DNA of 58,747 nucleotides, taken from the IMG/VR virus record IMGVR_UViG_3300033148_009015, positions 1-58,747 of that record. One strand, 5' to 3'. Shown piece by piece: positions 470 to 56,659 of the stretch. The notes under the pieces are model-generated. The model was given only the letters and a program-made list of their open reading frames with translations. It was not told the origin of the DNA and searched no databases. The stretch's first letter is position 1. Each line of letters starts with the position of its first letter. A program made the position numbers and the translations under genes. This stretch comes from a virus. Its lineage: Duplodnaviria; Caudoviricetes.

Positions 470-614
470 TTTTCGCTCCTTTCCGCCGAAAATGCTCGCG
501 CAAAATATCGCTCGCTTCGTCGGCCAGGCGCACCGCCTCGGCCTCGACCGCCGCCCATTCCGTTGAGGCGACCGCCGCTATCAACGTCACCTTGCGACGC
601 TCATCAACCGTCAC
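438..614 (-). CDS. Small hypothetical protein
   Basis: 3' part of ORF 438..887 from GTG at 614 (VTVDERRKVTLIAAVASTEW...); fills the gap between two genes. Confidence 0.45.
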   Translation of the reverse strand: MTVDERRKVTLIAAVASTEWAAVEAEAVRLADEASDILREHFRRKGAKNEREDEDMDA

Positions 615-915
615 CGTCTTGAGCGCCTTGGCCCTGTGCCTGTACATAGAACCCATAACACTCGCTCGATTCCAGCCGCCCGGTCCCGCCAGATAACTGC
701 TCCGGCGTCCGCGTGTCGCAAAACCAACCAGACCACTCGACCGACTCGACCATACACGACGGGCAACCCTCGTGCCCGCAATACAGGCAACGAGGCCGGC
801 AGGCCACGTGCATCCGTGACGCAGCACAACCGACCTCGTCGCACTCCACGCTCCGCTCGCCTGCCTCAATCGGCTCGCGGCATACACTACATATCACCAC
901 AACCTGCTGCTCCAT
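604..915 (-). CDS. Cys-rich zinc-finger-like protein
   Basis: MEQQVVVICSVC...CLYC...CPSC...WFC; ATG at 915 directly after the pentamer repeat tract. Confidence 0.6.
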   Translation of the reverse strand: MEQQVVVICSVCREPIEAGERSVECDEVGCAASRMHVACRPRCLYCGHEGCPSCMVESVEWSGWFCDTRTPEQLSGGTGRLESSECYGFYVQAQGQGAQDGDG

Positions 916-1187
916 CGCCTTGCCTGCCCTTACGTTGCCTATGCAATGCAATCCTTGGCTCTACTCCACTTTGCCGGAGCTATACTGAGCTCTGCAACGC
1001 TGTGGCACTGCCCCGCCCCGCGTCGCGCCGCCTTGCGCTGCCCGTGCCACGCAACACCCTGCTTTGCACCGCTCCACTTTGCCTGGCCGTTGCGGTTGCA
1101 GTGCAACGAAGCGCCGCTGCAACACATTGCCAACCGACGCATCGCCCAGGCTTTACGTTGCCGTGCGCAACTACGCCATTCCATAGC
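916..1187 (-). ncRNA. Period-5 NGY-NN repeat tract; putative guide RNA(s) for the adjacent RAMP/Cas7-like protein (VIPR-like)
   Basis: Minus-strand runs such as GGCCA GGCAA AGTGG AGCGG TGCAA AGCAG GGTGT TGCGT GGCAC (1088-1044) and GGCAA AGTGG AGTAG AGCCA AGGAT TGCAT TGCAT (975-941). Starts right after the stop codon of the RAMP gene. Confidence 0.75.
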
Positions 1188-1904
1188 CTATGCTCTCGCT
1201 TTTCTCCGCCGAGCCTTCGGCTTGACCGCCTTCGGCGCCTTGGCCGCCGAGTCCCACCACTCGAACCGCCCGAACGAGGCGTTCCGCCATTGGCCCAGAC
1301 CACGCACCGCACCATAATTCAGCCACTCGCGGACAAAATCCCACAAGTCGGGCCGAAACACCTCTATCTCGACCGCGATTCGCGTGCCAGCTGGAGCCTG
1401 CTCAGACCGACTCAACGCAACCCGCTCGCCCTGCCGCGTCTCGCAACGTATCGGACGCTCGCACCACTCGATTACGCCCTTGGCCGGCAGCTCCAACAAA
1501 ATCCGACGAGGATAAACAAACACCAGACTGTCTATCGTCCGCCGGTACAGATACCGCGTCAGCCGTGCCGCCTTGTAACGCGACGCCTGCTCCGTGTCCG
1601 CCGCGTCCAAGGCAGTCCGGCAAACCTCCTTGAAAAACCCCTTCACCTGATAGTCCCAGATGAACGGCTGCTTTTTCGCCGTCCGAGGAAAAATCGTGCT
1701 GGCCTTGCGCAACTCATCATCCAAATCGCCCGAAACGCTGTGCTCGAGCGCGGCTTCCTCATCTGCCGCCCTGCTCAAAATGAACTCCCTGGCAACGTTC
1801 GGGTCCCCGGCCAGCGTCGCAAGCAGCGGCTCGGTAAACTCGATTCCAACACTGTATCGCTCTGGCCGCCAGCCGGCCAACCTCTCCTTCGCTTTTGTCG
1901 CCAT
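1188..1904 (-). CDS. Stand-alone RAMP/Cas7-like protein (Vipr-like), 238 aa
   Basis: N-terminal strand YSVGIEFTEPLLA; IWDYQVKGFFKE helix motif; RSEQAPAGTRIAVEI; C-terminal Gly-rich loop GAVRGLGQWRNASFGRF typical of RAMPs; RBS AAAGGAG before ATG 1904. Confidence 0.8.
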   Translation of the reverse strand: MATKAKERLAGWRPERYSVGIEFTEPLLATLAGDPNVAREFILSRAADEEAALEHSVSGDLDDELRKASTIFPRTAKKQPFIWDYQVKGFFKEVCRTALDAADTEQASRYKAARLTRYLYRRTIDSLVFVYPRRILLELPAKGVIEWCERPIRCETRQGERVALSRSEQAPAGTRIAVEIEVFRPDLWDFVREWLNYGAVRGLGQWRNASFGRFEWWDSAAKAPKAVKPKARRRKARA

Positions 1905-1933
1905 CGTGTCGCTCTCCTTTCTCGTCTCAATCA

Positions 1934-2056
1934 ATAATACGGGGCGCCGACGCCTGTCGCATCGAGGATTGAAGGTAACAGCATCATCAAATATCACACG
2001 CCGGCGCCCCACGTCGCTACTGTAGCTGGTTAGTCGCGGCATCACCTCCTTTCGTT
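1934..2056 (-). repeat. Conserved ~125-bp structured leader element, copy 1
   Basis: Near-identical to 3727-3853 except for a central variable stretch; stem GGGGCGCCGGCG...CGTCGGCGCCCC. Confidence 0.85.
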
Positions 2057-3393: not shown

Positions 3394-3699
3394 TCAGTAT
3401 TCGTACCCATCGTCGTCCAACGCACTCCACTCGCTGCCCCACGTCGCAGCACGGTCCGCACACTGCGGCGCAGCAAACTTGTACCACATCTTCCCTCTCC
3501 GGTCGATGCGGCACATCGCTATCGCGCCCGGACGCACGTGGTCGCGCCCGCAAATGCACCAGGGCACACTTCGGCCCAGCGCCTCTAACACGTCGTCATC
3601 TTGCCCGTCGAGCTCGCAGTCAATCTCCGTTGCAACCTCGCGATAGTACGCCGCTGCCTGCTCCGGGTCCGTCATCGTGTAATTCGCTTTGTCCGCCAT
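3394..3699 (-). CDS. Hypothetical protein
   Basis: MADKANYTMTDPEQ...; RBS GAAAGGAG. Confidence 0.7.
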   Translation of the reverse strand: MADKANYTMTDPEQAAAYYREVATEIDCELDGQDDDVLEALGRSVPWCICGRDHVRPGAIAMCRIDRRGKMWYKFAAPQCADRAATWGSEWSALDDDGYEY

Positions 3700-3726
3700 T
3701 GTCGTTCTCCTTTCCTGTTTCATTGG

Positions 3727-3853
3727 ATAATACGGGGCGCCGACGCCTGTCGCATCGAGGGGTTGAAGGTGGCAGCTTGGCCAGCTTCTTCTCTACGCCG
3801 GCGCCCCACGTCACTACTGTAGTTGATTAGCCGTGGCATCACCTCCTTTCGTT
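3727..3853 (-). repeat. Conserved ~125-bp structured leader element, copy 2
   Basis: Near-identical to 1934-2056. Confidence 0.85.
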
Positions 3854-14226: not shown

Positions 14227-14330
14227 ATGAGTGGACGATGGTTAGTCAAGCAGAATCAAAGAACCGAGCCGGAAGCCCCTCGTCTTCGCAGTCCATGCGA
14301 GTCCACTCATCTTTCGGCTCGGTCTTTTTT
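14227..14330 (+). promoter_or_regulatory. Structured leader/attenuator upstream of the replication gene
   Basis: ATGAGTGGAC (14227) pairs with GTCCACTCAT (14301); ACCGAGCCGGAAG (14263) pairs with CTTTCGGCTCGGT (14311), followed by a T run. Confidence 0.6.
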
Positions 14331-14345
14331 GCTGGAGGCCATGCA

Positions 14346-15206
14346 ATGGCAGTGGGACGCATCATTCGCAAGGATATATCGGAGAGCCGCAGGGTCGCCG
14401 CGCTTAAGACCGACAGCGCCCGCCTGCTGTACACTTGGCTCATCGCGCACGCGGACGTGAACGGCAACTTCAGTGCCGACCCGCACGTCGTAAACGGTCG
14501 CGTTCTCACGCGCCTCAGCAAGACGGCTGAGGAGGTGCAGGACTACCTGGATGACCTGGAGTCAACAGGCTTGATAATGCGCTACGAGGCCGACGGGGAC
14601 ATGTATTTGCACATCAGGAAGTTCGCGGAAAAGCAGCCCTGTCTCAACCCGAAGCGCGAGGCCAAACCGCGCATTCCTCTACCTGCAACAGACGAAGGTG
14701 AGACCAACTCCAGACCAACTCCAGACAAACTCCAGACCAACTCCAGACAAACTCCAGACAAACTCCAGACCAACTCCAGACCAACTCCAGACCAACTCCA
14801 GACAAACTCCAGACCTGCGCAGGCACAAATTAAAATTAAAAGTAAAAGTAAAATTAAAACTAAAGACCCCCCCCCATATACCCCCCCCCTACACCGCGAC
14901 AAGCGCCGGCATCTTGAGCACGTATTCCTGACTGACGATGAATACGACAAACTCTGTGCCCGCTTGGGCGAAACTGCCGCCCGCGATTATATCGAGCGGC
15001 TCAACGACTACATCGGCAGCCGTGGGTGCCGATACAAGTCCCACTATCACACGATTCTGACCTGGTGGCGAAACGACAACCCCAATGGCAATCAGCGAGG
15101 CACGATTTCAGGCGCTCAACGAGCGGCTTCGGCAGCGGCAAGCGGCGGCCGCCCGCGAATCAACCAGCAGGATTTCGGCGACCTGCCCTCCGTTGCGCGA
15201 GCATAG
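14346..15206 (+). CDS. Replication initiator protein (lambda O-like architecture)
   Basis: N-terminal wHTH (ARLLYTWLIAHAD..G), internal iteron-encoded repeat, C-terminal V.LTDDEYDKL...YKSHY.TIL.W domain; RBS GGAGG. Confidence 0.85.
   Translation: MAVGRIIRKDISESRRVAALKTDSARLLYTWLIAHADVNGNFSADPHVVNGRVLTRLSKTAEEVQDYLDDLESTGLIMRYEADGDMYLHIRKFAEKQPCLNPKREAKPRIPLPATDEGETNSRPTPDKLQTNSRQTPDKLQTNSRPTPDQLQTNSRPAQAQIKIKSKSKIKTKDPPPYTPPLHRDKRRHLEHVFLTDDEYDKLCARLGETAARDYIERLNDYIGSRGCRYKSHYHTILTWWRNDNPNGNQRGTISGAQRAASAAASGGRPRINQQDFGDLPSVARA
14701..14866 (+). repeat. Replication origin: ten 11-bp iterons plus AT-rich unwinding element
   Basis: AGAC(C/A)AACTCC x10 (14701-14810), then TAAAAN-type hexamer repeats to about 14866. 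Confidence 0.85.
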
Positions 15207-15882
15207 ATGCTCGGACTGTGGCTGTGTGCTGTCCGAGGAGCGAACGACGCCGGTGGTGCATGCCTACTGCAGACCCTGCCAGGCCCGGCGCGACCATCGT
15301 GCCGCAGTTGCCCGCCGGCGCCGGACGCGGGCCCAGCGAGTTGCCGCCCTGGACCAGCTGATTCCGCCGCTGTACGCCGGTGCCCGCCTGCGCCATTTTC
15401 GGCCCGAGTTCCGGCACGAGCTCGTCCGGCATTGGCGCCAGGGCATAGTGTTGTACGGCCCGACCGGCACCGGGAAGTCCTATGCCCTGTGCGCCCTGCT
15501 GCGGGCGCTGACCCTGGCTGGACACTGCTGCACACGCACCAGCTGGATTCGGATGTGCCTGGAGACGCGGGAGGCCTTCGTCCGCGACGCGACCGTTACG
15601 GAGCTGGCTGTGGTGCGGCGCTACAGCCAGGCGCCCGTGCTCTGTATCGAGGACCTCGGCAGCGACAGGCCCGTCGGCCACGAGGAGTCGGCGTTCGCGC
15701 TGCGGCTGTTCTACGCCGTGCTGGACCAGCGCCAGGAGCGGCTTCTCCCGACGCTGATAAGCACAAACAAGACCTTCGGCAACATCGCCAGGAGCTTCGA
15801 CGACCGCATCGCCAGCCGGCTGCGACTGTTCCGGTGGCTGGGCGTCGGCGGCCCCGACCGCCGCAAAGGGGGCCCGCAATGA
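15085..15882 (+). CDS. DnaC/IstB-like helicase loader ATPase
   Basis: CxxC...CxxC, GPTGTGKS, LCIEDLG, PTLISTN, RIASRL. Confidence 0.85.
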   Translation: MAISEARFQALNERLRQRQAAAARESTSRISATCPPLREHRCSDCGCVLSEERTTPVVHAYCRPCQARRDHRAAVARRRRTRAQRVAALDQLIPPLYAGARLRHFRPEFRHELVRHWRQGIVLYGPTGTGKSYALCALLRALTLAGHCCTRTSWIRMCLETREAFVRDATVTELAVVRRYSQAPVLCIEDLGSDRPVGHEESAFALRLFYAVLDQRQERLLPTLISTNKTFGNIARSFDDRIASRLRLFRWLGVGGPDRRKGGPQ

Positions 15883-16346
15883 GCGCGCCGTTGCGAGCGA
15901 GCTTCCTACAGGACAAGGGCATCTGGCCCGAGTCGGCCGGACCGCCCTGCCGCGTGGCCCTGGCGGACCTGCGTACTGCCCTGGCCGAGGCGGGCGCGGT
16001 GGAGGTCCTGGTGGACGTGCCGGTCACGCCGGACGAGCAGCTGTCGCTGGCGGAGGTCCTGCGGGACCTGGGGGCCAGGGATGTAGTGCTGCACTACGCG
16101 GACATGGCAGCTCCTCAGACCGAGGCGGCCGACTCGGCGGGCACGCCGCGCGGCCTGTGCACGGCGGAGCAGGCCGCCCGTGCCCTCGAGATGCTCGATG
16201 AGGTCCTCGCCAGCGCCCGCGCCAGCAGGTCCGTTGCGGCAAGGCTCGCCGGGCTGAAGGCCTGCCGCCGGGCCTTTACCGCCGCCGAGCTGGCGGACAT
16301 CGCGTCGTTGCACGCGAATCTTGTGGGCGACGAGGCAGTCGAATGA
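15879..16346 (+). CDS. Hypothetical protein
   Basis: ATGA overlap with the loader stop; MSAPLRASFLQDKG... Confidence 0.65.
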   Translation: MSAPLRASFLQDKGIWPESAGPPCRVALADLRTALAEAGAVEVLVDVPVTPDEQLSLAEVLRDLGARDVVLHYADMAAPQTEAADSAGTPRGLCTAEQAARALEMLDEVLASARASRSVAARLAGLKACRRAFTAAELADIASLHANLVGDEAVE

Positions 16347-16540: not shown

Positions 16541-16653
16541 TATGCGCATCGTGTTACTGGTCGGGTTGAAAATATGCGCACCGTGCTACCGATTAGGTTG
16601 TGGGTATGCGCATCGTGTTACGTAATGGCTCGCAAGTATGCGCACTTTTGCAG
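16541..16653 (+). repeat. 32-bp periodic array of TATGCGCAYCGTGYTAC motifs
   Basis: TATGCGCA at 16541, 16573, 16605 and 16637 (exact 32-bp spacing), with variable 15-bp linkers. Confidence 0.85.
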
Positions 16654-16754: not shown

Positions 16755-17345
16755 ATGAGCGCTGAAGCCGGAACAAATAGAGTCTTGCCACAGGACCTCG
16801 ATGTCCAGTGGATGCCCATCGGCAAGGTGAAGCCCTACCCCAGGAACCCGCGCGCGAATGACGCGGCCGTGGACAGTGTCGCACGCAGCATAAGCGAATT
16901 CGGTTGGCGGCAGCCCATCGTCGTTGACCGCGACATGGTCGTCGTCGCAGGACATACGCGGCTGAAGGCGGCGAAGAAGCTCCGCCTGAAGGTTGTGCCG
17001 GTCCACGTGGCGGCGAATCTCACGCCCGAACAAGCAAGGGCGTATCGCCTGATGGATAATCGCTCACATGACTTTTCGGGCTGGGACATGCCTGTTCTCC
17101 AGGAGGAACTGGCGGAGCTGGAGCTTGCCGGCTACGACCTCTCACTTACGGGCTGGTCACAATTGGAAGTTGCCTCCGCCGAACTTGCGGGCGTCCAGGA
17201 CGAGGACGCCGAGCCGCCAGAGCTGCCGGACTATATCAGTTTCGTCGTGACGCCGGAAGAACGCCGGGAAATCGAGGACGCCCTGGCTCAGCAACGCGGC
17301 GCGAATCCAACGGAGCGATTGCTATGGCTGATAAGGAGCAGATAG
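16755..17345 (+). CDS. ParB/Srx N-terminal domain protein
   Basis: KPYPRNPR, SISEFGWRQPIVVD, AGHTRLKAA, AYRLMDN. Confidence 0.9.
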   Translation: MSAEAGTNRVLPQDLDVQWMPIGKVKPYPRNPRANDAAVDSVARSISEFGWRQPIVVDRDMVVVAGHTRLKAAKKLRLKVVPVHVAANLTPEQARAYRLMDNRSHDFSGWDMPVLQEELAELELAGYDLSLTGWSQLEVASAELAGVQDEDAEPPELPDYISFVVTPEERREIEDALAQQRGANPTERLLWLIRSR

Positions 17346-56200: not shown

Positions 56201-56659
56201 TTACCGGTCATCGAGGTTTGCCCCCGGACAAATAGCGATTATCTGTCTATCTGTGGCAACTAACTTGTCTTTGTCGATAATAATACGGCCCCAAACCTTT
56301 ACCTTCGTAAGCACCACATCACAGGCGCTCGGCCTGTATTTGCGAGCATCCTCAGGACTCAAACTCGCGTGCAAACCATATTCGCACAGAGCTATCTCGT
56401 CCTCGTGCAAATGCTCGCCTATGGCGGTTACCCTCTCAGTGCGCAACAACAATTGGCCGGCTGCATTACGCCGAACATAATGATATGCAGTCCACGCATC
56501 CTGCCGGCCAAGTATGATGTATTCTTGGCCATAGCCATAGCCATAGCCATAGCCATAGCCGTCGCCATAGCCGTCGCCAGAGCCAGAGCCATCACCAGAG
56601 CCATAGCCATAGCCAGAGCCAGAGCCGTCGCTATTTAGTCCCACGGTTGTTCTCGCCAT
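56201..56659 (-). CDS. G-x repeat protein with CxxGLHAS domain
   Basis: GSGSGYGYGSGDG...GYGYG tract, then LCEYGLHAS...DKLVA. Confidence 0.7.
   Translation of the reverse strand: MARTTVGLNSDGSGSGYGYGSGDGSGSGDGYGDGYGYGYGYGYGQEYIILGRQDAWTAYHYVRRNAAGQLLLRTERVTAIGEHLHEDEIALCEYGLHASLSPEDARKYRPSACDVVLTKVKVWGRIIIDKDKLVATDRQIIAICPGANLDDR

What the first reader, a model, noticed from the sequence alone, without database searches (positions are those of the whole stretch)
916..1187. Internal grammar of the repeat tract: relaxed NGY code, phase breaks and duplicated blocks
Seen on the minus strand: in-phase runs 1182-1148 (GGAAT GGCGT AGTTG CGCAC GGCAA CGTAA AGCCT), 1088-1044 (9 units; NN = CA AA GG GG AA AG GT GT AC), 1037-1003 (CGCAA GGCGG CGCGA CGCGG GGCGG GGCAG TGCCA), 1001-977 and 975-941. 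Runs are separated by 1-nt phase slips or short irregular stretches. GGCAAAGTGGAG recurs (1083-1072, 975-964) and GGCAACGTAA recurs (1162-1153, 939-930); several runs begin with or contain GGCAA. The first triplet base varies (G/A/T/C), so the code is NGY rather than strict GGY. Inference: several tandem guide units, each about 25-45 nt and arising by duplication, in a divergent variant of the system.
Basis: partly seen in the sequence, partly recalled or inferred. Interest (0 to 1): 0.8.

Follow-up and report, generated by a model that had tools for sequence, protein, structure and literature searches.

The report
Phage VIPR guide array, relaxed code
The 272-base gap after a small Cas7-like phage gene is a real array of five-base repeats of the kind that VIPR systems (CRISPR-like viral RNA-guided DNA silencers first described in 2026) use as guide RNAs, so it is a genuine but already known kind of element in a looser-than-usual dialect.

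Summary
On the minus strand, 916-1187 is one unbroken array of about 52 pentamer units with G-pyrimidine at unit positions 2-3. The period-5 signal is the strongest of 2924 sliding windows in the genome (z about 9 against shuffles). All 8 phase breaks are +1 (a 6-nt unit). They cut the tract into segments of 6 to 46 nt.

The tract fills the gap after gene 1188..1904. That gene's model matches Cas7/Csm3 backbone proteins. Its homologues carry the same kind of tract beside them in 48 of 80 viral loci and 42 of 80 cellular-genome loci. This fits VIPR (bioRxiv 10.64898/2026.04.26.720920). That paper already lists a YNNNG repeat consensus and "staggered" arrays.

Relatives share a clear grammar. 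Segments start with GGC, end in an A-rich 6-nt unit and are mostly 26, 31 or 36 nt long. The first unit base varies as fast as the two "NN" bases.

Duplication within this window is only weakly supported (P about 0.05). No RNA data and no target were found. The 81-aa ORF is not a conserved gene. Earlier notes of this scan report VIPR loci in other genomes.

Verdict: new member of a known kind.

The parts
1188..1904 (-). vipr-like gene: 238-aa Cas7/RAMP-like protein with C-terminal glycine-rich loop (G-x-G-Q-W-R-N ... G-R-F) and an extra basic tail
   Evidence: ORF, with ATG at 1904-1902 read. My reference 1188-1907 carried one extra leading codon. No Pfam or PHROG family. AlphaFold2 model has pLDDT 87.5. 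Foldseek top PDB hits are Cas7 of type VII, Csm3, Cmr4 and Csf2, E down to 4.7e-07, probability 1.00, TM 0.4-0.6. 337 homologues at E<=0.001.
916..1187 (-). pentamer-repeat array (candidate vrRNA array): about 52 units of N-G-Y-N-N filling the whole gap between the vipr stop codon and the next start codon
1147..1182 (-). segment 1: a leading GGA unit plus 6 units, the last of 6 nt (31 nt from 1177)
   Evidence: parse
1116..1146 (-). segment 2: 6 units (one lacks GY), the last of 6 nt; 31 nt; starts with GGC
1089..1115 (-). segments 3 and 4: 21 nt (4 units, one lacks GY) and a lone 6-nt unit
1043..1088 (-). segment 5: 9 units, 46 nt, the longest in-phase run; starts with GGC
1002..1042 (-). segment 6: 8 units, 41 nt; starts with GGC
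976..1001 (-). segment 7: 5 units, 26 nt; starts with AGC
940..975 (-). segment 8: 7 units (one lacks GY), 36 nt; starts with GGC
915..939 (-). segment 9: 5 units running into the ATG (915-913) of the next gene. One unit lacks GY here but has it in the near-twin L002. A 15-nt (3-unit) deletion variant lies here.

Best explanation
The tract is the guide-RNA array of a VIPR system, and gene 1188..1904 encodes its Vipr protein.

Inferred mechanism, by analogy with the studied type II system: the array is transcribed with vipr on the minus strand. One Vipr protomer binds each 5-nt unit and holds the fixed G-Y. The variable bases are exposed to pair with double-stranded DNA of a competing mobile element, which silences it.

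This clade uses a relaxed unit. Only G2 and Y3 are fixed, and N1, N4 and N5 vary.

The array has no spacers or tails. It is punctuated by one extra base every 5-8 units in relatives and every 1-9 units here. In relatives each segment starts with GGC and ends with an A-rich 6-nt unit. The segments of about 21-46 nt are the most likely individual guides, matching what the VIPR paper calls staggered arrays.

Shown here: the periodic anatomy, the Cas7-like fold, the family-wide linkage of gene and tract, and the conservation pattern by unit position. Inferred, not shown: transcription, processing at the +1 breaks, Vipr binding, the pairing rule and the targets.
For: Anatomy and significance.

Fold: model with pLDDT 87.5. 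Cas7, Csm3, Cmr4 and Csf2 are the top PDB matches.

Linkage. In the viral set, 50 of 80 loci have a GY tract scoring >=10, and 48 of those lie within 400 nt of the gene. In the cellular-genome set, 44 of 80 loci have one, 42 of those lie within 400 nt, and 41 of the 44 score best on the gene's strand. No other neighbouring gene of the window is shared with those loci.

Grammar. Steps of 5, 6 and 4 nt number 1524, 373 and 9 and 1360, 332 and 7. The unit after a 6-nt unit starts with G in 96% and in 316 of 332 cases. Segment lengths peak at 26, 31 and 36 nt. In the window there are 8 steps of 6 nt and none of 4 nt, and G follows 6 of the 8.

Constraint. Mismatch rates in 23 related pairs are 1.5% (G2) and 3.9% (Y3), against 10-18% at N1, N4 and N5.

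Link to the studied Vipr. A profile-profile match of this family to the SUSP1 Vipr family covers the last 50 columns including the G-loop (probability 67%, E 5e-05). The Trp and Arg that the structure paper says hold G2 and Y3 are kept. The Asp and His that it says read G1 are Gln and Thr here, which fits the relaxed first base.

Method control. The same periodicity scan picks out the two known array regions of phage SUSP1.

Literature. YNNNG repeats, 'internal degeneracy' and staggered arrays are described for VIPR.
Against: A HMMER profile of this family finds nothing in the SUSP1 genome. The profile-profile match is local and modest, so homology to a validated Vipr rests mainly on fold and context.

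The window's array is less regular than its relatives'. Strict GGY occurs in only 17 of 51 units and 4 units lack GY. The 6-nt units mostly lack the A-rich ending of the family consensus (position 5 is A in 3 of 8, read by eye from the units, against 74-81%).

There is no conserved 3' tail or special fold (z = -0.65), unlike the type II guides.

No conserved accessory (vap) gene was found.

One natural variant changes a fixed G (place 944).

The GY criterion finds no tract scoring >=10 in 30 of 80 viral and 36 of 80 genome loci. The ones I looked at have a looser period-5 pattern.
Confidence: 0.75

Rival explanations
1. Same system, different reading of the grammar. The +1 breaks are not guide boundaries but features inside one or a few long guides, for example an extra base once per helical turn of the Vipr filament. 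The tract would then yield few long vrRNAs, not about nine short ones.
For: The commonest segments are 5 and 6 units long (26 and 31 nt). The structure paper reports 6 protomers per turn in the binary complex and 5 in the DNA-bound filament. Studied vrRNAs have 9-16 units, more than most segments here. A guide with 5-6 units of two variable bases would specify only 10-12 bases.
Against: Segment length varies widely (16-46 nt), which is not what a fixed helical requirement predicts. The strict GGC start and A-rich end look like termini. The VIPR paper's legend describes abutting vrRNAs in staggered arrays.
Confidence: 0.2
2. A decaying or repurposed array. The tract descends from a VIPR array but no longer guides this phage's Vipr. 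It would be a relic, or a decoy that engages a competitor's Vipr.
For: It is less regular than in relatives. Of the 6 variable sites in near-identical genomes, one breaks a fixed G and one changes a degenerate unit. Decoy and solo vrRNAs are reported for other VIPR systems (abstract seen).
Against: The vipr reading frame is intact, and its fold model is confident. The period-5 frame is kept over all 272 nt with only +1 breaks. One C/T difference keeps the pyrimidine.
Confidence: 0.08
3. A DNA-level element: an array of protein-binding sites on duplex DNA (partition, packaging or replication site) spaced half a helical turn apart.
For: GC is palindromic, so both strands carry the period. A ParB-like methyltransferase gene lies elsewhere in the genome.
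Against: The signal is clearly stronger on the gene's sense strand (23.9 against 12.8). In relatives the sense strand is purine-rich with few T. The likely origin is elsewhere: 11-nt iterons inside the replication-initiator gene. The tract's only constant partner is a Cas7-like RNA-binding fold.
Confidence: 0.03
4. The pattern reflects a real 81-aa protein gene (939..1184, minus strand).
For: An ATG-initiated open frame spans most of the tract.
Against: A period of 5 cannot come from codons. All 4 substitutions against the near-twin L002 that fall in the frame change the protein (3 residues changed, none silent). Related tracts mostly carry stop codons in every sense frame: 18 of the 22 examined do, for example 6, 7 and 7 stops in L033, and 4 of 22 have one open frame. 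No Pfam family. Open frames over such tracts also arise on the antisense strand and cluster by repeat content alone (128 of 160 loci).
Confidence: 0.02

Closest known systems
VIPR systems with alternative repeat consensus (YNNNG) and 'staggered' vrRNA arrays, bioRxiv 10.64898/2026.04.26.720920 (Methods 'VIPR type classification'; legend of fig. S18)
   Same: A lone small RAMP-like gene in a virus, flanked by a pentamer array. Only part of the GGY is fixed. The units show internal degeneracy. The guide units abut without spacers or tails.
   Different: I could read only the text and figure legends, not the figures or supplementary data. I therefore cannot say which of the seven types this clade is. 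I also cannot say whether the grammar found here is what that figure shows: GGC start, A-rich 6-nt end, always +1, segments mostly 26, 31 or 36 nt. The window's own array departs from its family's A-rich ending.
Type II VIPR of Escherichia phage SUSP1 (record KT454805; Vipr ALH47069, vap1 ALH47068)
   Same: A protein of about 200-240 aa with the same C-terminal G-loop (G-x-G-x-W-R ... F-G-R-F). Period-5 arrays lie in the intergenic DNA beside it.
   Different: SUSP1 guides have about 12 strict GGY units in one phase, followed by a tail of about 40 nt. They are separated from one another, and a vap gene follows vipr. Here strict GGY is a minority, there is no tail and no conserved vap, and a break falls every 1-9 units. 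Sequence similarity is confined to the C-terminal 50 columns.
Non-canonical VIPR arrays found by a genomic language model, bioRxiv 10.64898/2026.10.21.760802 (passages read)
   Same: 5-nt periodic arrays next to a Vipr-like fold, with fixed triplets other than GGY or degenerate at one position.
   Different: The motifs named in the passages I read (GAC, CAC, WGT, TGH) are not N-G-C. Those arrays are said to repeat about 10 times, not about 52.
Class 1 CRISPR backbone filaments (Cas7, Csm3, Cmr4)
   Same: Best structural matches of the protein. The logic is the same: one protomer per fixed number of guide bases, with a thumb that interrupts pairing.
   Different: No CRISPR repeat-spacer array in the genome. 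None of the 20 window proteins I scanned against PHROGs matched a Cas family; I did not scan every ORF. The period is 5, not 6. The guide information is interleaved with the fixed bases.

Membership tests
VIPR (Vipr + vrRNA) | Small RAMP-fold protein (RRM core, thumb hairpin, glycine-rich loop) outside a CRISPR locus | tested here: met
   Model with pLDDT 87.5, a long beta-hairpin at residues 147-171 and a C-terminal G-loop. Cas7-class proteins are the top PDB matches at probability 1.00. No CRISPR array found.
VIPR (Vipr + vrRNA) | Sequence homology to an experimentally studied Vipr (SUSP1) | tested here: inconclusive
   The HMMER profile of the family finds no match in SUSP1 at E<=1. hhalign of the family against the single protein gives E 0.0016 over 22 columns. 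Family against family gives probability 67%, E 5e-05 over 50 C-terminal columns.
VIPR (Vipr + vrRNA) | Tandem pentamer array beside vipr, with fixed and variable positions | tested here: met
   The linkage is family-wide. Fixed positions are conserved and the others are variable.
VIPR (Vipr + vrRNA) | Canonical GGY/NN unit | tested here: not met
   Strict GGY in 17 of 51 units and G-Y in 47 of 51. This fits the alternative YNNNG consensus that the paper lists.
VIPR type II (SUSP1, P. fulva) | 9-16 in-phase repeats followed by a conserved structured 3' tail; vap1 after vipr | tested here: not met
   Segments have 1-9 units with no tail. Folding energy is not special (z = -0.65 and -0.52). The neighbours are not conserved.
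VIPR (Vipr + vrRNA) | Array transcribed and processed; RNA bound by Vipr | not testable with these tools
   No listed run holding the stretch is on record as RNA.
VIPR (Vipr + vrRNA) | Variable bases match DNA of other mobile elements by the 1-nt-skip rule; no self-targets | tested here: inconclusive
   No self-match or match to related loci beyond shuffled controls at skips 0-2. Exact search of IMG/VR gave 0 hits for the 9-unit segment. The 8-unit segment gave 15 scattered hits, a number I estimate to be about what chance gives, and none extended into neighbouring segments. Only exact matches could be searched.
VIPR (Vipr + vrRNA) | Encoded by a virus or provirus | tested here: met
   The window is a complete 58.7-kb virus record with terminal repeat. 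It carries RecT, SbcC-like, replication-initiator and other phage genes.
CRISPR-Cas | Repeat-spacer array with repeats of 20 nt or more, and adaptation genes | tested here: not met
   No such array. None of the 20 proteins I scanned matched a Cas family; I did not scan every ORF.

The most novel reading that the evidence does not exclude
In this large N-G-C clade the guide code differs from the published one. Three bases per unit (N4, N5 and the next unit's N1) carry information, because the protein has lost the two residues that read G1. The 26- and 31-nt segments would be one-helical-turn mini-guides of 5-6 protomers, cut at a GGC / A-rich punctuation. That would be a second decoding rule and a much shorter guide format for VIPR.
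Probability: 0.15. Interest if true: 0.6.

Novelty: new member of a known kind. Interest (0 to 1): 0.3.

Why it matters
VIPR is a months-old discovery: an RNA-guided DNA-recognition system of viruses with an interleaved code. This window adds a complete, uncultured vent or sediment phage carrying a stand-alone Vipr gene with a tail-less array.

The comparison made here gives a usable grammar for a large clade. That clade has at least 564 IMG/VR loci and 172 matching stretches in a collection of one genome for each of 185,579 species. The loci listed include MAGs labelled as many bacterial groups and one archaeon. The grammar is: fixed G-C; a variable first base; always +1 punctuation; a GGC start; and segments of 26, 31 or 36 nt.

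If the published figures do not already show this, the grammar makes automatic calling of guides possible for the clade. It also gives a concrete hypothesis, the Asp-to-Gln and His-to-Thr changes at the G1 pocket, for how the fixed part of the code can relax.

As a single locus it is ordinary for its kind.

Tried and rejected
- Rfam at gathering thresholds and a tRNA scan over the whole window found nothing.
- DNA search of GenBank phages with 600-2100: no match.
- tblastn of the protein against GenBank phages gave only 4 unannotated gut 'Bacteriophage sp.' records at about 39%. SUSP1 was not hit.
- Pfam and PHROGs gave nothing for the vipr-like gene, for the 81-aa ORF (scanned against Pfam only), or for the five neighbours scanned.
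- RNA folding of either strand is no better than shuffles.
- The promoter and terminator scan found no site inside the tract.
- A coherent Fourier measure of period 5 failed on relatives because of the phase breaks, so I used autocorrelation and an anchor-chain parse instead.
- Cluster look-up of 10 homologues gave no UniProt accession linking them to the paper's seed proteins.
- I tested whether the triplets N4-N5-N1' avoid stop codons. There was only mild depletion (33 observed against about 54 expected) and nothing decisive.
- Target searches: see the membership table. They were inconclusive.
- The metagenome scan for closer relatives returned one identical fragment without the tract.
- Sequencing runs: no RNA holder was listed. 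DNA contigs of 4 runs were laid only to see variants.
- MAFFT alignment of the two Vipr families did not align the thumb region credibly, so I make no claim about the thumb arginine.
- Earlier-findings look-ups by place and by sequence returned nothing.

Full report
WHAT IS THERE

The window is a complete virus record of 58,747 bp whose ends repeat 114 bp. It is a tailed-phage-like genome with RecT, an SbcC-like nuclease, a replication initiator with internal 11-nt iterons, and methyltransferases.

Region 916-1187 is exactly the gap between two minus-strand genes. Gene 1188..1904 ends with TAG at 1190-1188. Gene 604..915 starts with ATG at 915-913.

THE OBSERVATION

On the minus strand the G-pyrimidine dinucleotide recurs every 5 nt. 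Autocorrelation is 37, 30 and 25 at lags 5, 10 and 15, against 0-18 at the other lags. The tract is the top-scoring of 2924 sliding windows on its strand, about 10 sd above the genome mean. No dinucleotide shuffle out of 2000 reaches it (z 8.8 for GY, 7.7 for GC). Nothing else in the genome shows the signal.

A chain parse shows that the 'irregular' parts are in period as well. There are 51 units plus a leading one: 43 of 5 nt, 8 of 6 nt and none of 4 nt. G-Y is present in 47 of 51 units and strict GGY in 17 of 51. The first base is G 18, A 13, T 12, C 8. Segment lengths are 31, 31, 21, 6, 46, 41, 26, 36 and 25 nt.

The duplicated 12-mer and 10-mer are only marginally beyond chance once the frame is held fixed (P = 0.057 and 0.041 in 5000 column shuffles).

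WHAT IT BELONGS TO

The upstream gene has no Pfam or PHROG match, but it has 337 homologues at E<=0.001. A profile scan of IMG/VR confirmed at least 564 relatives, of which the best 80 loci were kept. In a collection of one genome per species, 172 stretches encode a relative. The 80 loci listed include MAGs labelled Dissulfurispiraceae, Planctomycetota groups, Chloroflexota, many gut Clostridia, Coriobacteriia, Bacteroidota and a Promethearchaeota archaeon.

In both sets the strongest period-5 G-Y tract lies right beside the gene:
- Viral set: 50 of 80 loci have a tract scoring >=10, and 48 of the 50 lie within 400 nt of the gene.
- Genome set: 44 of 80 loci have one, 42 of the 44 lie within 400 nt, and 41 of the 44 score best on the gene's strand.

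The remaining loci have no tract by the G-Y criterion. The few I inspected show a looser period-5 pattern in which mainly the G is kept. No other neighbour of the window's gene is shared with these loci. No other gene cluster is found in more than 25 of the 160 loci, apart from three clusters of minus-strand ORFs (128, 57 and 54 loci). Going by their example coordinates, these lie antisense over the repeat tracts or over the vipr gene. The conserved module is therefore protein plus tract.

The AlphaFold2 model of the protein (pLDDT 87.5) matches Cas7 of type VII, Csm3, Cmr4 and Csf2 at Foldseek probability 1.00, with E down to 4.7e-07.

A literature search led to the VIPR preprint, bioRxiv 10.64898/2026.04.26.720920. 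I read its outline, Results, Discussion, Methods sections 18, 20, 26 and 27, and figure legends found by term search. Its figures and supplementary data were not available to me.

According to that text, VIPR consists of a Vipr protein of about 20 kD with a RAMP fold, plus vrRNAs made of GGY/NN pentamers. The NN bases pair with double-stranded DNA, skipping one target base per unit. Seven types are described. Alternative consensus repeats NNNGG, YNNNG and NNNNG are listed.

TEST AGAINST THE STUDIED EXAMPLE

I fetched phage SUSP1 using an accession I recalled, and the record title confirmed it. My periodicity scan picks out precisely the two intergenic regions that flank its vipr (ALH47069) and the gene after it. 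This serves as a positive control for the method.

A HMMER profile of the window's family finds nothing in SUSP1. Profile-profile comparison of the two families aligns the last 50 columns, including the G-loop (probability 67%, E 5e-05).

I read the outline and sections 5 and 6 of the structure preprint 10.64898/2026.04.26.720927. It states that G1 is read by H17 and D177, that G2 is held by R138 and W178, and that Y3 is held by R179 and helix-1 residues. In the alignments, W178 and R179 correspond to an invariant Trp-Arg in the window's family. D177 corresponds to an invariant Gln and H17 to a nearly invariant Thr. This fits a code that keeps G2 and Y3 and frees position 1. It is an inference from alignments at 14-21% identity, not a structural result.

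GRAMMAR OF THE CLADE

In 43 distinct viral tracts, steps of 5, 6 and 4 nt number 1524, 373 and 9. The unit after a 6-nt unit begins with G in 96% of cases, against 45% of ordinary 5-nt units. The 6-nt unit reads N-G-C-(A/G)-A-N. Distances between breaks peak at 31 (123), 26 (97), 36 (54) and 41 (23) nt.

The independent cellular-genome set replicates this. Steps number 1360, 332 and 7. G follows in 316 of 332 cases. Lengths peak at 26 (96), 31 (86) and 36 (51) nt.

The window shares the direction (8 of 8 breaks are +1) and mostly the GGC start (6 of 8), but not the A-rich ending.

EVOLUTION

In 23 related (not independent) tract pairs, mismatch rates by unit position are 14.9, 1.5, 3.9, 10.2 and 17.6%. 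Position 1 is as free as the two 'NN' positions.

At close range the picture is thin. The near-twin L002 differs at 5 sites in the tract and at none in about 300 nt of aligned flanks. Contigs of four DNA runs add one more site and a 15-nt deletion at 920-934, which is exactly three units between two copies of the same unit. Of the 6 variable sites, two are at N1, two at position 3 (one C/T, one G/C that restores a G-Y), one at a fixed G and one at N5. Faster change at NN is therefore not shown here.

Gap lengths in the alignments of relatives include peaks at 1 nt (18 cases) and 5 nt (13 cases), with 10, 15 and 26 nt also seen. One relative (L003) carries two identical adjacent 26-nt segments, which also repeat the end of the segment before them. 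Duplication of units and segments is therefore real in the clade.

NOT A GENE

The 81-aa frame has no family. Its 4 differences from L002 are all non-silent. Of the 22 related tracts examined, 18 carry stops in all three sense frames and 4 have one open frame.

WHAT COULD NOT BE SHOWN

No run holding the stretch is on record as RNA. No target was found. Local searches at skips 0-2 do not beat shuffled controls, and skip 3 only finds the tract itself. The 9-unit segment has no exact 1-nt-skip match in IMG/VR. The 8-unit segment has 15 scattered hits, about the number I estimate chance would give. They do not extend into neighbouring segments, and the skipped base does not agree with N1. Only exact matching was possible, so this says little.

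STANDING

Four preprints of 2026 cover VIPR. For 10.64898/2026.10.15.759431 I saw only the outline and abstract. For 10.64898/2026.10.21.760802 I read passages, which report 21 clusters of non-canonical 5-mer arrays beside Vipr-like folds. Earlier notes of this scan report VIPR loci in other genomes, including a staggered array and an xGC code. I did not test those notes.

This locus is a new member of a known kind. What may be new is the explicit grammar of its clade and the residue-level rationale for the relaxed first base. Whether the first is already in the paper's figures I cannot tell.

Noticed in passing
window 1907-2056 and 3700-3853 (minus-strand sense): A 150-nt element is duplicated at about 90% identity, directly upstream of the vipr-like gene and of gene 3394..3723. 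It has conserved GC-rich inverted arms around a diverged middle, and starts with a strong ribosome-binding site plus start codon. In the first copy that frame runs on into vipr. It may be a shared promoter/leader or a regulatory RNA.
   Followed up: no
window 14701-14815, then 14827-14864: 10.5 copies of an 11-nt repeat lie inside the replication-initiator-like gene 14238..15206, followed by an A/T-rich hexamer repeat. This is probably the origin of replication.
   Followed up: partly
window 56528-56626: 16.5 copies of a 6-nt repeat lie inside minus-strand ORF 56201..56659, which has no PHROG match. It would encode a long dipeptide repeat.
   Followed up: no
window 16541-16621: 2.5 copies of a 32-nt repeat lie in the gap between ORFs 15207..16346 and 16755..17345. 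They may be operator or binding sites.
   Followed up: no
window 636..1937 plus strand; L003-L185: Long open frames run antisense over the repeat tracts. Here it is a 433-aa frame. In 128 of 160 related loci such frames cluster together by BLAST purely through repeat content. Gene callers are likely to file these tracts as hypothetical proteins.
   Followed up: partly
window 920-934: A contig of one DNA run lacks exactly 15 nt (three units) between two identical units, a unit-quantised length polymorphism of the array.
   Followed up: partly
window 1188-1250: The vipr-like protein ends in a lysine/arginine-rich tail of about 20 residues. Most homologues lack it: they cover only about 83% of the query.
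   Followed up: no
L003 1597-2411 and 3123-3698; L033 1546-2433: Some relatives carry very long arrays (up to about 890 nt, about 160 units). In L003 there are arrays on both sides of the gene.
   Followed up: partly
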